DNA of 64,000 nucleotides. Source: a virus (lineage: Duplodnaviria > Caudoviricetes). Of this stretch, positions 1 through 19,356 are shown piece by piece. The notes beneath the pieces are model-generated. The model ran no database searches. It saw only the letters and a list, made by a program, of their open reading frames with translations, and had not been told where the DNA came from. The stretch's first letter is position 1; each line of letters starts with the position of its first letter. A program made the position numbers and the translations under genes. The stretch lies in the IMG/VR virus record IMGVR_UViG_3300027819_000006. One strand, 5' to 3'.

Positions 1-135
1 CGTATTTGCTGTTTCTTGAGACAGTTTTTCAAATTGCTGTCTTAAAATGCGTATATTGCTTTCTCGTATAAACTTTTTTTCAGTATGCGATTTAACTATA
101 TTTCTGATAAAATTTTCAATACTTTTCATCAACAT
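1..135 (-). CDS. N-terminal part of a gene running off the window (possibly portal protein)
   Basis: Open frame MLMKSIENFIRNIVKSHTEKKFIRES... begins at 135 after a purine-rich RBS. The portal guess rests only on its position downstream of terminase. Confidence 0.3.
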   Translation of the reverse strand, partial: MLMKSIENFIRNIVKSHTEKKFIRESNIRILRQQFEKLSQETANT

Positions 136-15703: not shown

Positions 15704-18700
15704 CTAAACAATCTTGAAACCATCTACAGAATATCTAGAAATTCTATTAACCTCTTCTTCTTCATGTTTCTCCATCTGATTCAAATAGAAAGCAAATCTC
15801 TCTTCTATATGCTCGTTCAAATCGTAAACTTTATCAGAATAAACTTTCAAATCTGCTGCTTTCTTCTTTGATTCTTCAAAATTCTCGACATGTTTAGATA
15901 TAGCATCTGTCCACACTTTAGGAGCTGTAACACTTACTGCCATGTTTTCAAATCTTAGTTTATCGGGAACAGTTTTCCAGAAGTCATGATAACCTCCATA
16001 ATTGCTGAATACTGGGACTGCTCCATAATACAAAGATTCTATCAGCTTTATCTCTGATTTGCACTCGCTAAATGTATTATGTTCTACATATGCCAAAGAT
16101 ATATCAAACAGAGTATAGAATTTAGCATATTCTTCTAGAGGCAGAGCATCAAAAATTTTTATTCTCTTTGGATCAATACCTGAATATAGTTTCTCTACTC
16201 TGTTTCTATAAGTCAAGCTCTTGTCTTGCAATTCCATTTCTCTGAATTTAGCCTGACCATTCTCGTCATATTGTATTTCTACTTGTGAATCTTTCAATGC
16301 CATACCAGCAAGCACAAATACAGTCTGTGGATATCTGTCATGTATGACTTTTAGAATGGAATACATTTTTCTCAGATCTTCAAAATGACTTGTAAGACCT
16401 GCCCAGCCAATAACAATTTTATTGTCAGTTGAAGGAAACCATTCTGGTAACATTTGCTGTCTAGTATCAGAAATATTTAAATTCCATTGTGGCAGTTGCC
16501 AGTCAAACATATTTCTGATTATATGCACATTCTTATTGAAATTTCCAAATGTTTTACATAGTTTCTCAGTAGTAGTTGTAATAGCATGACTCTTGCTTAG
16601 AGAGTGAATGCTCATTTGATCTTTTTTGCTTGCATCAATTATGTTGCGATGATATCGATTCCATATCATCTCTTATGGTCACCCATAAGTTCAGACTATT
16701 TCTTGTGCTATATTCAAAAGCACCTCTCTGTTTCAGCTTCTCTTGAAGCTTACATTATATAGTCGTTGCACTATCTGTGTTTCAAATATTCAGCTATTAT
16801 GCTGATTACTGCAATAAGAGATATTACAGATAAAGCATATATTAAAATATACTTTCCAAATAGCTCAGAGTTTTCTCAGTGAGATTTTCTCTGAATTAAG
16901 AGAGTTTTTATTATGTGAAGCAATTTAATACCACACATCACGCATCAATTATGTTATCTTAGAAGTTCTTTATCTTCTAATTCTGATAATTTTATTCTTA
17001 TCAGTTCGGACTATATCATCAGTATTGAAATACTGTCTCTTTTTCTTGGATATTTCTATCTAGTCTCTGAACCTTCTATTTTATCAATAGTTTAGCTGCT
17101 GATTAGCATTTCAGCTTTCCAGCAATTTAAGAGATTTTTCATTGAATTATTCAATGCCCCAATTTTTATTCAGGGTGCGTTCTTGGTAAGTTGAATTCAT
17201 TATCTATTTATTTGTTAACTGCAATTTCTTTTATTATAGTTGCAGATCGGACTATTTCATCTAGTTCTATGTCTAGTCTCTGAACCTTCTATTTATATAG
17301 CTTGGCTGCAGATTGTCTCTGTCTGAGATATCCCTGCAATTTATAGAATTTATTGTGGACAATATTTGAATTCTAAAAACTTAATCCACATCATGACAGA
17401 CCCAAGCAGATTTCTCTGTCTTCGGCCACATGTTTACTGCTGATAAAAAATGTGAATGTAAATTTCCACATCTGTGCATTATTATTCCATCTGCTAATTT
17501 GAGATGATTCGGTTGTCATTTATGTTGCGGAATTTATTCGCAATAAGCTGCTGAAAATAATATGCATGGTTTCTTAACTTTTATATTGATTTCTTCGAAG
17601 CTATAATCTCTAAAAGTATGAAAATTAAATTCATCTTCATTTCCAAAAGATCTTTTTAGTGTTGCTTTAGCCTCTTCTAAATCTTTTGCTGCTATAAAAA
17701 TTATACTAAGTGAATAACCTTTACATGCTTTTACTTTAAAATATTTCATAATAAATTCCTCTACAATTTTTTATATTGTTGTAGTTCGGACTATCACATG
17801 ATCTTATAATATACTAAGCTGCTACCATTCAATTTTACCAGATTTACGAACTAATTTGTTGCCATATAGAGTAACTACTAATACATCTTCTAATACTTTA
17901 TATGTTCTTTGTGCAGCGTTTGATTTAAATAATTTCTTAACAGAAGCTGCTTGTTTCTTAGTCATATATCTGTAATTCACCATAAGACCTCCAAGGTTTA
18001 GTCTCTTCTACTGCATTTTCATGCTTGTAGTTTGTTAGCTTTAATTATGTTTCTAATTTGTTTTTTGTCTAATTTATCAGAAGATATTACGCATCCAAAA
18101 TCGCTAGTATTTTTAGTGTCAGGATGTTGATAAATGTGTAATCCAAATTTGTATTTTAAAACATGTTCTAATATCTCTATGTAGCTCATTGGACCTCCTG
18201 CAATTATTTCTTGATTCATAGTCAAAGCCTTTCAATTTAATTACTTAAGATTCTCATTTCTATATTGCTATAGAATGATCCACATTGTCTAGATTTTCAG
18301 TATAAACTAAATTTATCTCATCTCTAAAATTCTTCCACAGTACTCTCATCGGTTCAAAGATTCTGAAATATGCTTTCATGTTAGCTACAATTTTTGATAT
18401 AGTTGTAGTTCGGACTATCATATGATCTTTATGCTTTACCAAGTCTCAGGATCATTTCTATAAAAGTGTACAAATGCTAAAAATATTATAATACATCCTA
18501 GTGGTAAAATTAAACATTTTAGATCTCCAATCGTTTAGTCTCTCAAGCTGCAAAATTGTTTATAAAGCTTCCTGTCTTGATTAAAATATACTTTTTCTAT
18601 TGAAAGCTCTACTAAATTATAAATATATGCACACTTTCTATTATCTTTGGGACATCCTGGATCTTCTGCTTCTAAATATATAAGAGGAGAATATTTATCT

Positions 18701-19309
18701 CTATATATTTTAGCAATTTTATAATCCCAACTTTTGAGCTGTCTTACCTGAACTTCAACCCAAAAAGGCATGTACCTATAGTTCATCATGTTTTGCTTGC
18801 TCCTTGTTGTCTGATTTCTATGATCAGATATTCAAGTGATTAGATTAGATTCTCATTCTATATTATTAGAATGACACCATTTAAAATGTTCCAGTTTCTG
18901 CTTTATGTTAATCTCTAATTTTTTGTATAGTTAGAGTTCGGACTATCATATGATCTTTACAGATTATTAAAATCAAAACCTTCTCCTTTATAATTCTCTG
19001 TACAATATGTCGCAACGAATATTAAAAGAAAAATTATTATTCCGCCCATAAAAATCTCCAATCGTTTAGTCTCTCAAGCTGTATTTAAACTTGTTCCTTG
19101 TTGTCTGAATTTTATTCAGATATTCAAGTGATTAGATTAGATTTTCATTCTATTGCTTATAGAATGCCGCCAGAATTTAACGGAGTGCTAAAAACGATAC
19201 AGCGCTTAGATCGATCGATGCTAGATGGATTAGTGAACATTTGTTTCAACTTGTTTCTTTCTTCAGCATTTTTATAGTTCAAATGCTCTTCTACATTTTC
19301 TTCTGTAAT
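15704..19309 (-). CDS. GT-B glycosyltransferase, 7 exons interrupted by six group I introns (446 aa spliced)
   Basis: Exons 19309-19180, 18900-18886, 18372-18291, 17516-17384, 17204-17172, 16945-16930, 16635-15704 total 1341 nt in frame: ...STPSETGTSYFRIFEP...HDVDDNEFNLPRTHPMRDVWYASKKDQ...IGWAG...KSEIKLIE. Probable ATT start behind AAGGAG. Confidence 0.88.
16636..16929 (-). mobile_element. Group I intron 6 (294 nt)
   Basis: P1 GUGUGGU/GCUUCAC; AAUCAGCA; GCAACGACUA; AAGAAAUAGUCUG; ends AACAUAAUUG; splicing restores the TAT codon. Confidence 0.88.
16946..17171 (-). mobile_element. Group I intron 5 (226 nt)
   Basis: P1 CCCU/GGGG; AAAUUGCUGGAAA; AAUCAGCAG; UUCAGAGACUA; GAUGAUAUAGUCC; ends AACAUAAUUG. 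Confidence 0.92.
17205..17383 (-). mobile_element. Group I intron 4 (about 179-180 nt, very compact)
   Basis: P1 GUGGAU/GUCCAC; AAAUUGCAGGGA; AAUCUGCAGCCAAG; UUCAGAGACUA; GAUGAAAUAGUCC. Confidence 0.9.
17534..17749 (-). CDS. 71-aa ORF looped out in a 3' helix of intron 3
   Basis: Flanked by complementary GAGGAATTTATT / AATAAATTCCGC. Confidence 0.55.
   Translation of the reverse strand: MKYFKVKACKGYSLSIIFIAAKDLEEAKATLKRSFGNEDEFNFHTFRDYSFEEINIKVKKPCILFSAAYCE
17822..17983 (-). CDS. 53-aa basic ORF inside intron 3 (not in ORF track)
   Basis: GGAGG then ATG; MVNYRYMTKKQAASVKKLFKS...KIEW. Confidence 0.5.
   Translation of the reverse strand: MVNYRYMTKKQAASVKKLFKSNAAQRTYKVLEDVLVVTLYGNKLVRKSGKIEW
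18019..18225 (-). CDS. Small ORF inside intron 3
   Basis: ORF track; AGGAGG before internal ATG (MSYIEILEH). Confidence 0.5.
   Translation of the reverse strand: MTMNQEIIAGGPMSYIEILEHVLKYKFGLHIYQHPDTKNTSDFGCVISSDKLDKKQIRNIIKANKLQA
18373..18885 (-). mobile_element. Group I intron 2 (513 nt), core nearly identical to intron 1
   Basis: P1 ACAU/GUGU, P10 AUG/CAU, same P3 and P7 strands as intron 1, ends AACAUGAAAG. Confidence 0.92.
18535..18789 (-). CDS. 84-aa ORF inside intron 2 (no homing endonuclease motif seen)
   Basis: ORF track; AAGGAG upstream within the intron core. Confidence 0.55.
   Translation of the reverse strand: MMNYRYMPFWVEVQVRQLKSWDYKIAKIYRDKYSPLIYLEAEDPGCPKDNRKCAYIYNLVELSIEKVYFNQDRKLYKQFCSLRD
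18901..19179 (-). mobile_element. Group I intron 1 (279 nt)
   Basis: P1 CCGU/GCGG with U.G at the 5' site; P10 UUCUG/CAGAA; P3 UCUAAUC/GAUUGGA; P7 GAGACUA/UAGUC; ends AACAUAAAG. Confidence 0.92.
18957..19049 (-). CDS. 30-aa hydrophobic mini-ORF inside intron 1
   Basis: GGAG-6 nt-ATG; MGGIIIFLLIFVATYCTENYKGEGFDFNNL. Confidence 0.45.
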   Translation of the reverse strand: MGGIIIFLLIFVATYCTENYKGEGFDFNNL

Positions 19310-19356
19310 GTTAGTTCTCCTTATTTAAATGTTTAACATCTATTTATTTTATAAAA

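What the first reader, a model, noticed from the sequence alone, without database searches (positions are those of the whole stretch)
17204..17383. Ultra-compact group I intron (about 180 nt), possibly ending in A instead of G
Seen: intron 4 has all core elements in 179-180 nt with almost no P8. The frame and the HDVDD motif need exon 5 to begin GAT at 17204, and P10 (UAUU/GAUA) supports this. The preceding base is A and only one G is present, while the G-binding G-C pair in P7 looks normal. Known: group I introns almost always end in omega-G, and the Azoarcus model intron is about 205 nt. Inference: either a rare omega-A intron or a lost G (GG read as G) in the assembly, given other indels in this window. 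The small size holds in either case.
Basis: partly seen in the sequence, partly recalled or inferred. Interest (0 to 1): 0.65.

Follow-up and report, generated by a model that had tools for sequence, protein, structure and literature searches.

The report
Minimal phage intron ending in A
A 179-base self-splicing (group I) intron in a phage sugar-transferase gene is real and unusually stripped down, and in this assembly it ends in A instead of the near-universal G, which is either a rare natural exception or a one-base lesion or error that only raw reads or cDNA can settle.

Summary
Window 17383-17205 (minus strand, 179 nt) is a genuine group I intron, the fourth of six in a phage glycosyltransferase gene. 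It reaches Rfam's Intron_gpI gathering score (51.4 vs 50 bits) when a small region is searched.

It has P1 with a U.G wobble, P3, P4, P5, P6, P7 with a normal G-C guanosine-binding pair, and P9. It has no P2, no P7.1/P7.2 and no P8; three bases stand where P8 should be.

Twenty-three intron-free homologues have an invariant DDNE motif. Only the junction 17384|17204 restores it, so the last intron base is A17205. The only same-length pair with canonical U...G ends gives D121Y and breaks the U.G wobble.

P10 is the longest of the six introns: 4 contiguous pairs plus a 7-pair extension.

The sequence is one step from a canonical G|G junction in two ways, G-to-A at omega or loss of one G. I found no twin of this intron elsewhere, so a true omega-A, a fresh lesion and a consensus error stay open. 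Long intact ORFs argue that assembly indels are rare here.

A P2-less, P8-less core recurs in ribonucleotide-reductase introns of other phage contigs, which end in G. Omega-A has a precedent in hexacoral mitochondria. This scan had already noted the same stretch on an overlapping window of the same genome.

The parts
17205..17383 (-). Intron 4 of the glycosyltransferase gene: a 179-nt group I intron with no ORF
   Evidence: Boundaries from tblastn of intron-free homologues and from listing all in-frame splice pairs. Rfam RF00028 scores it 51.4 bits, E 5e-12.
17384..17389 (-). P1 5' strand, the last six exon-4 bases GUGGAU. U17384 is the U of the U.G wobble.
   Evidence: Pairs base by base with intron 24-29, GUCCAC.
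17355..17360 (-). Internal guide sequence, P1 3' strand (intron 24-29, GUCCAC)
17361..17373 (-). P10 guide inside the 23-nt P1 loop. UAUU (intron 20-23) pairs with exon +1..+4. GAAUUCA (intron 11-17) pairs with exon +6..+12.
   Evidence: Pair list. RNAduplex gives -7.5 kcal/mol for the 7-bp extension. Chance estimates: 2.4% for the contiguous 4 bp, 5% for a further 6-bp Watson-Crick helix.
17343..17348 (-). P3 5' strand UUCUAU (intron 36-41). It follows P1 after six bases, so there is no P2.
   Evidence: The Rfam alignment pairs the same bases.
17265..17270 (-). P3 3' strand AUAGAA (intron 114-119)
   Evidence: A 6-bp Watson-Crick match arises by chance in 3.2% of random 19-nt segments.
17285..17339 (-). 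P4-P5-P6 domain (intron 45-99): P4 UUGCAG/CUGCAG, P5 UCUC/GAGA, P6 CUAU/AUAG closed by CC/GG
   Evidence: Found by the unconstrained MFE fold and by the manual model. Matches the Rfam consensus.
17274..17280 (-). P7 5' strand G-[A]-GACUA (intron 104-110). G106 is the G of the guanosine-binding G-C pair.
   Evidence: The position corresponds to Tetrahymena G264-C311 (from established knowledge).
17249..17254 (-). P7 3' strand UAGUCC (intron 130-135)
17255..17264 (-). Linker CUA plus J8/7 GAUGAAA (intron 120-129). This is where P8 should be.
   Evidence: Rfam aligns 0 nt to its 59-position P8 block. The only GACUA...UAGUCC pair within 30 nt in the window is this one.
17219..17245 (-). P9 hairpin CUGCAA/UUGCAG with a 15-nt A-rich loop (intron 139-165)
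   Evidence: The loop starts CUAUA as in introns 1 and 2.
17205..17218 (-). 3' tail UUAACAAAUAAAUA. The last base, A17205, occupies the omega position.
   Evidence: The five sibling introns end AACAU(A/G)A(A/U)(A/U)G or AACAUAAAG.
17172..17204 (-). Exon 5, a 33-nt micro-exon encoding DNEFNLPRTHP. G17204 is its first base.
   Evidence: 100% identical to P0022 residues 121-131. Invariant DDNE.

Best explanation
Window 17383-17205 (minus strand) is a genuine, ORF-less, minimal group I ribozyme intron. Its core sequences resemble phage IA-type introns.

Exogenous G would attack after U17384, the U of the U.G wobble in P1 (GUGGAU/GUCCAC). The freed exon 4 would then be ligated to G17204. That base is held next to P1 by an unusually long P10 (4 + 7 bp).

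The ribozyme keeps P3, P4-P6, P7 with a normal G-binding pair, and P9. It has dispensed with P2, P7.1/P7.2 and P8.

The nucleotide at the omega position is A17205. My preferred reading is that this A is real and the intron still yields at least some correctly ligated mRNA, with P10 rather than omega-G fixing the 3' splice site.

Shown: the sequence, the helices, the family match, the splice junction demanded by protein homology. Inferred: that splicing actually occurs at A|G, and how efficiently.
For: Family match: Rfam Intron_gpI 51.4 bits, above its gathering score of 50, E 5e-12. P3, P4, P5 and P7 are all paired in the alignment.

Splice junction:
- P1 has U.G exactly at the junction that homology requires.
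- D120-D121-N122-E123 are invariant in 23 homologues of 42-69% identity.
- Only 17384|17204 restores the motif.
- The spliced CDS is an open 446-aa frame that keeps 69 of 71 invariant residues.
- The other five introns, mapped the same way, all have U(-1) and a terminal G. The mapping method is therefore sound and the gene looks maintained.

P10: it is contiguous with P1 and totals 11 bp. The siblings have about 5, 3, 3, 1 and 1 bp by my reading of the sequences.

Viability of the stripped core: a P2-less, P8-less core exists in other phages. Family B introns in a ribonucleotide-reductase gene score 78.8 bits with 1 nt in the P8 block, and splicing restores NPCGE in all six loci, which carry four distinct intron sequences.

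Assembly quality: ORFs in the window are long and unbroken, so assembly indels are rare.

Precedent: natural omega-A introns that give ligated mRNA exist, in hexacoral mitochondrial ND5-717 (PMC8146996, PMC6545197).
Against: - Omega-G is nearly universal. By established biochemistry, from memory, omega G-to-A mutants of the Tetrahymena and T4 td introns are strongly impaired in exon ligation.
- The G-binding pair here is an unchanged G-C, so nothing visibly compensates for an A.
- The sequence is a single event away from a canonical G|G junction, either G-to-A at 17205 or loss of one G. Family A and B introns do have G|G.
- A related glycosyltransferase-gene intron (L145) ends AAAUAG|, which is the tail this intron would have if G17204 were omega.
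- No relative carrying the same intron was found, so the A cannot be shown to be conserved.
- The helices are short and AU-rich. P3 alone has a 3% chance expectation and the P10 extension 5%.
- An alternative hairpin (intron 3-46) sequesters the guide sequence and the P3 5' strand in the MFE fold.
- A P9.0 pairing argument for A179 as omega holds for some relatives only. It fails in family B and in introns 1 and 2.
Confidence: 0.45

Rival explanations
1. Consensus or assembly error. The true sequence has a canonical omega-G, either ...AAAUAG|GAUAAU (one G of GG dropped) or ...UAAAUG|GAUAAU (A called for G). The intron would then be an ordinary, if very small, group I intron of 179-180 nt.
For: - Either one-base correction makes everything canonical at once: omega-G, a contiguous P10, and the reading frame.
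- Relatives show both tails: AAAUAG| in L145 and UAAAUG| in intron 3 and the L015 family.
- G|G junctions occur in families A and B.
- Earlier unchecked notes of this scan list several one-base frameshifts elsewhere in this genome.
Against: - The site is not a homopolymer run.
- The 64-kb window has long intact ORFs (1265, 1045, 966 and 773 aa). I found no split Pfam domains in the overlapping ORF pairs tested. The per-base error rate therefore looks very low.
- The frameshifts noted elsewhere are mostly in selfish nuclease genes, where real decay is expected.
Confidence: 0.2
2. Real but crippling lesion. A recent omega G-to-A change, or loss of one G, has blocked exon ligation or moved it to G17204. 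That would give a -1 frame product ending in a stop in exon 7. On this reading the glycosyltransferase is a fresh pseudogene in this phage.
For: - The G-C binding pair is unchanged, and omega-A mutants are defective in model introns (established knowledge).
- G17204 lies directly next to the omega position and could slip into the G site.
- Using it gives ...HDVD-IMNSTYQERTL... and then a stop (read).
- Two otherwise invariant residues are changed, T37C and P113A.
Against: - The rest of the gene is intact: 69 of 71 invariant residues, six introns with intact cores, no other stop or frameshift.
- A null allele at consensus level would have to be very recent or neutral.
- The strong P10 argues that the 3' splice site is actively specified.
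Confidence: 0.25
3. Both splice sites lie one base downstream (17383|17203). The intron then ends in G17204 and the protein reads HDVDYNEF.
For: It is the only same-length, in-frame alternative with U(-1) and a terminal G.
Against: - It replaces D121, invariant in 23 homologues, with Y.
- It puts a U.U opposite the guide sequence instead of the U.G wobble.
- It leaves a one-base gap between P1 and P10.
Confidence: 0.05

Closest known systems
Phage group I introns of subgroup IA2 (T4 td, nrdB, nrdD/sunY; Staphylococcus phage Twort orf142)
   Same: - Located in a phage protein-coding gene.
- R and S core sequences (GGUUCAGAGACUA ... AUAGUCC), J3/4 AAA, and P7 with a bulged A and a G-C binding pair.
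- Several introns crowd one gene, as in Twort.
- More than half of viral group I introns are IA2 (PMC11835236).
   Different: - No P7.1/P7.2, the IA-defining peripheral helices.
- No P2, no P8, no ORF.
- About 70 nt shorter than Twort-type ribozymes (size from memory).
- Terminal base A.
Azoarcus pre-tRNA-Ile intron (205 nt, subgroup IC3)
   Same: Compact, ORF-less, and lacks most peripheral domains (PMC13168695). It is the usual reference for a minimal self-splicing intron.
   Different: - Azoarcus has P2 and P8 and ends in omega-G (from established knowledge).
- It sits in a tRNA anticodon loop.
- Intron 4 is 26 nt shorter and lacks both helices.
Hexacoral mitochondrial ND5-717 group I intron
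   Same: It ends in A where G is otherwise universal, yet perfectly ligated ND5 exons are seen in RNA data (PMC8146996, PMC6545197).
   Different: - It is an organellar intron with a giant gene-bearing insertion in P8.
- It is vertically inherited, and the A is conserved across an animal subclass.
- Here P8 is missing, the host is a phage, and conservation of the A cannot be shown.
Uncharacterised P2-less, P8-less introns in phage ribonucleotide-reductase genes (family B: L025, L079, L090, L169, L170, L179)
   Same: - Same layout: P1, short linker, P3, AAA, P4 ... P7, 3-nt linker, P3', 5-nt linker, J8/7, P7'.
- Near-identical P4'-P6-P7 sequence (CAGCAGCCAAGC...GAAGGUUCAGAGACUA).
- The same J7/9 GAU.
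   Different: - 267-273 nt long, with an enlarged P5 region and extra P9 helices.
- Rfam score 78.8 bits.
- All end in G followed by G.
Sibling intron 5 of the same gene (17171-16946, 226 nt)
   Same: Lies 33 nt downstream. The P6-P7 segment (AAUAGAAGGUUCAGAGACUAGA) is nearly identical.
   Different: Has P2, a hairpin between P7 and P3', a 6-bp P8, an extra P9.1 hairpin and omega-G. Its P10 is only about 1 bp.

Membership tests
Group I introns (Rfam RF00028) | Covariance-model score at or above the curated gathering score | tested here: met
   51.4 bits against a gathering score of 50, E 5e-12, when 16600-17420 is searched. The intron was missed in the whole-window and 12-kb searches because of speed filters.
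Group I introns | P1 formed by the 5' exon and an internal guide sequence, with a U.G wobble at the 5' splice site | tested here: met
   GUGGAU/GUCCAC, with U17384 opposite G24. This coincides with the exon end fixed by protein homology.
Group I introns | Scaffold domain P4-P5-P6 and catalytic helices P3 and P7 forming the P3/P7 pseudoknot | tested here: met
   All are present and canonical in the manual model and in the Rfam alignment.
Group I introns | Guanosine-binding G-C pair in P7 next to a bulged nucleotide | tested here: met
   G104-[A105]-G106 ACUA / UAGU C134 C135. G106-C134 sits at the position of Tetrahymena G264-C311 (positional equivalence from established knowledge).
Group I introns | P8 helix as part of the P3/P9 catalytic domain (PMC3984707) | tested here: not met
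   Only 10 nt lie between P3' and P7'. Rfam aligns 0 nt to its P8 block.
Group I introns | Terminal guanosine (omega-G) | tested here: not met
   The last intron base required by the invariant DDNE motif and by P1/P10 is A17205.
Group I introns | Self-splicing by two G-dependent transesterifications | not testable with these tools
   Needs an in vitro splicing assay or cDNA.
Subgroup IA2 (phage type) | Peripheral helices P7.1 and P7.2 between P7 and P3' | tested here: not met
   Only 3 nt (GAC) lie between P7 and P3'. Sibling intron 5 has one such hairpin.
Natural omega-A group I introns (ND5-717 type) | The terminal A is conserved among relatives, and ligated exons are seen in RNA | not testable with these tools
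   No relative with this intron in IMG/VR, JGI metagenomes or GTDB genomes. No RNA data.

The most novel reading that the evidence does not exclude
A free-standing 179-nt phage ribozyme that lacks P2 and P8 and carries A at the omega position still self-splices accurately. It would select its 3' splice site through an 11-bp P10 rather than through omega-G binding. This would be the first omega-A group I intron outside hexacoral mitochondria, and the smallest natural group I intron with an otherwise complete catalytic core.
Probability: 0.35. Interest if true: 0.75.

Novelty: new variant of a known kind. Interest (0 to 1): 0.55.

Why it matters
Group I ribozymes are textbook models, and P8 and omega-G are treated as fixed parts of the catalytic design.

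A natural intron that works without P2 and P8 in 179 nt would lower the known size limit for this fold. That fold would include P1, P3-P7, P9 and P10. It would also give a smaller scaffold for structural work and for engineered trans-splicing or circular-RNA tools.

If the terminal A is real and tolerated, 3' splice-site choice could rest on P10 alone in a bacterial-virus intron. Until now that has only been suggested by one organellar lineage.

The P8-less ribonucleotide-reductase introns found alongside show that losing P8 is a recurrent, viable solution rather than a one-off decay product.

If instead the A is a lesion or an error, what remains is a very small but otherwise ordinary phage intron.

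Tried and rejected
Searches that gave nothing useful:
- Whole-window Rfam search at gathering score, and a 12-kb search at E 10: no Intron_gpI hit. This was a filter effect; an 821-nt search finds introns 4, 5 and 6.
- No whole genome is held for the window.
- Cultured-phage collection, by DNA and by protein: only a 70-nt intron-core match to Staphylococcus phages and glycosyltransferases of 25% identity or less.
- IMG/VR with the protein, an alignment of it, and P0004: 31 homologous genes. All are intron-free at this site except L145, whose intron sits at another site.
- GTDB genome contigs: nothing.
- JGI metagenomes, pattern for a short P7-P7' spacing plus this intron's J7/9-P9 start: three unrelated introns, all with P8.
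- nhmmer of the intron against all fetched loci: only weak core matches.
- Paper searches for a 'smallest group I intron' and for P8-less introns found nothing relevant.

Arguments I dropped:
- A P9.0 covariation argument (J7/9 GAU with the two bases before omega). It holds in the L015 family and introns 5 and 6, but not in introns 1 and 2 or in family B.
- Other G residues as omega. All give stops, frame loss or deletions of invariant residues.
- Deletion remnant of an intron-5-like ancestor with a fortuitous P3. This is possible for the origin of the intron. However, both P3 strands differ from intron 5 and still match 6/6, and P8-less relatives splice in frame.

Full report
WHAT IS THERE

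On the minus strand, a glycosyltransferase gene runs from about 19309 to 15704 and is interrupted six times. I mapped four intron-free homologues (P0006, P0022, P0024, P0030) onto the window with tblastn. This places ...CHDVD up to 17384 and DNEFNLPRTHP from 17204 to 17172, the latter 100% identical to P0022.

The sequence between them, 17383-17205, is 179 nt. Its last base 17205 is A, and 17204 is the only G at the junction. I joined the seven exons in a script. The result is a 1341-nt open frame of 446 aa that keeps 69 of the 71 residues invariant in 23 homologues.

IS IT A GROUP I INTRON?

Yes.

Rfam's Intron_gpI model was silent in the whole-window and 12-kb searches. That was a filter effect. 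On 16600-17420 it reports:
- intron 5 at 61.8 bits;
- intron 4 at 51.4 bits (gathering score 50, E 5e-12);
- intron 6 at 38.5 bits.

My base-by-base model, in intron numbering where window coordinate = 17384 - n:
- P1: exon GUGGAU with GUCCAC (24-29), U.G at the splice site.
- P3: UUCUAU (36-41) with AUAGAA (114-119).
- J3/4: AAA.
- P4: UUGCAG/CUGCAG.
- P5: UCUC/GAGA.
- P6: CUAU/AUAG, closed by CC/GG.
- P7: G-[A]-GACUA with UAGUC-C.
- P9: CUGCAA/UUGCAG with a 15-nt loop.
- Tail: UUAACAAAUAAAUA.

The unconstrained MFE fold finds P4-P6, P7 and P9 on its own. The intron's MFE has z = -2.7 against shuffles.

G106-C134 lies next to the bulged A, at the position of the Tetrahymena G264-C311 guanosine-binding pair (established knowledge). 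It is unchanged.

WHAT IS MISSING

P3 starts six bases after the guide sequence, so there is no P2. The review PMC3984707 notes that P2 is absent in some introns.

Only GAC separates P7 from P3', so there is no P7.1/P7.2.

Only ten bases (CUA plus J8/7 GAUGAAA) separate P3' from P7'. Rfam aligns none of its 59 P8 positions. The same review lists P8 as part of the P3/P9 catalytic domain.

Sibling intron 5, 33 nt downstream, has a near-identical P6-P7 segment. It does have P2, a hairpin between P7 and P3', and a 6-bp P8. Both P3 strands of intron 4 differ from those of intron 5 and still match 6/6. A Watson-Crick match of that kind arises by chance in about 3% of random 19-nt window segments.

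IS A P8-LESS CORE VIABLE?

I scanned IMG/VR for the R and S core motifs with a short spacing. Two further lineages turned up in which a 3-5 nt linker replaces P8.

Family B comprises six loci in a ribonucleotide-reductase gene, split at NP|CGE:
- The introns are 267-273 nt.
- Their layout is the same as here: P1, linker, P3, AAA, P4.
- Their P4'-P6-P7 sequence is very close to intron 4.
- Splicing restores ...NPCGEALL... in every copy.
- P1 shows a G-C to A-U compensatory change between variants.
- All end in G followed by G.
- Rfam scores one of them 78.8 bits, with the P2 block deleted and 1 nt in the P8 block.

Family A sits in an nrdD gene and looks the same by eye. Rfam did not report it at E <= 0.001.

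So loss of P2 and P8 is a recurrent natural design. Intron 4 is its smallest form because it also lacks the enlarged P5 and P9 regions.

For scale:
- The Azoarcus intron is 205 nt (PMC13168695).
- Most group I introns exceed 200 nt, although degenerate fungal ones of 56-81 nt are reported (PMC3160393).
- A homologous glycosyltransferase gene in L145 has a 203-nt intron at another site. It keeps P8 but has no P9.

THE TERMINAL BASE

D120, D121, N122 and E123 are invariant in 23 homologues of 42-69% identity.

I listed all in-frame splice pairs within +-15/+-25 nt. Only 17384|17204 restores HDVDDNEF.

The only same-length pair with U(-1) and a terminal G (17383|17203) has three defects. It gives D121Y. 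It places U.U instead of U.G in P1. It leaves a gap between P1 and P10.

The other five introns, delimited the same way, all have U(-1) and a terminal G. The method is therefore not at fault.

P10 supports the same site. Exon +1..+4 (GAUA) pairs with intron 20-23 directly beside the U.G pair. Exon +6..+12 (UGAAUUC) pairs with intron 11-17, at -7.5 kcal/mol. That makes 11 bp, against about 5, 3, 3, 1 and 1 bp in the siblings by my reading. Chance expectation is 2.4% for the contiguous part and about 5% for the extension. This is suggestive, not proof.

HOW TO READ THE A

The sibling tails are AACAUAAAG, AACAUGAAAG, AACAUAAAUG and AACAUAAUUG (twice). The IMG/VR introns that share this intron's AUAGUCCGAUCUGCA segment end CUAACAUAAAUG.

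Intron 4 reads AACAAAUAAAUA|G. It can be aligned in two ways:
- As UAAAU-A, with a G-to-A change at omega.
- As AAAUA-G, the tail of L145, with one G of a G|G junction lost.

Either way the sequence is one event from canonical.

I could not obtain reads, a second assembly or a relative with this intron:
- No genome is held.
- Scans of IMG/VR, JGI metagenomes and GTDB genomes found no twin.

Against an assembly error, the window's ORFs are long and unbroken and no Pfam domain is split between overlapping ORFs. The site is not a homopolymer.

Earlier notes of this scan list a handful of one-base frameshifts elsewhere in the roughly 270-kb contig, mostly in nuclease genes (not checked by me). Suppose all of them were errors or lesions. 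The per-base rate would still be about 1e-5 to 1e-4. That is no larger than a rough prior for a tolerated non-G omega, given one known lineage, hexacoral ND5-717. That lineage gives perfectly ligated mRNA (PMC8146996, PMC6545197). This is order-of-magnitude reasoning only.

Against a working omega-A, the G-binding pair is not altered. Omega G-to-A mutants of model introns are poor at exon ligation (from memory). G17204 could also slip into the G site and give a -1 product.

VERDICT

The compact, P2-less and P8-less group I intron is established; I put that part at about 0.9.

The terminal A is a fact of the assembled sequence. Its biological standing is open:
- Real and at least partly functional: about 0.45.
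- Real but crippling: about 0.25.
- Consensus error: about 0.2.
- Shifted sites giving D121Y: about 0.05.

The same stretch was already noted by this scan on an overlapping window of the same genome.

Noticed in passing
L025, L079, L090, L169, L170, L179 (e.g. L025:12780-13060): Family B: 267-273-nt group I introns split a ribonucleotide-reductase gene at the NP|CGE motif. Like intron 4 they lack P2 and P8. Rfam scores one 78.8 bits with 1 nt in the P8 block. All end G|G.
   Followed up: partly
L154, L156-L160, L164, L166-L168, L172, L176-L178, L180 (e.g. L158:8250-8800): Family A: introns near the C-terminal end of an nrdD-like gene (...CPKCGS..ITKIDRI | NGYLGFTRVHGE...). They also appear P2-less and P8-less, with 17-18 nt between P7 and P7'. 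Many come from one sample with 90-186-kb contigs. Rfam did not report two of them at E <= 0.001.
   Followed up: partly
L145:2081-2283: A homologous glycosyltransferase gene carries a 203-nt group I intron at a different site (TPS|RTG). It has P2 and P8 but no P9; it ends UAGUCCACAAAUAG. This is another sub-205-nt phage intron, made small by losing a different module.
   Followed up: partly
window 19282-19322 (minus strand): The glycosyltransferase frame opens at ATT 19309, seven bases after AAGGAG. Homologues align from there. The first standard start (TTG 19282) would drop nine aligned residues. A possible ATT start codon.
   Followed up: no
P0001 and P0002 (homologues): Two longer homologues (719 and 812 aa) carry intein domains (PF14528, PF14890) inside the same glycosyltransferase. 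This gene family is therefore invaded by inteins as well as introns in other phages.
   Followed up: no
window 17338-17381 (intron 3-46, minus strand): The MFE fold puts the guide sequence, the P10 guide and the P3 5' strand into one long hairpin (5 + 7 + 5 bp, including UAGAAUU/AAUUCUA). That hairpin competes with the active fold. It could be a folding trap or a switch.
   Followed up: partly
window 1-64000: Method note. Rfam searches of the whole window, and of 12 kb at E 10, report none of the six introns. An 821-nt search reports three, two of them above the gathering score. Compact AU-rich introns are lost to the speed filters.
   Followed up: yes
window 17052-17063 (minus strand), intron 5: Intron 5 has a GAUAGAAAUAUC hairpin between P7 and P3' (a P7.1-like element). 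Its 5' half matches the P3' segment of intron 4, hinting that the two neighbouring introns share ancestry.
   Followed up: partly
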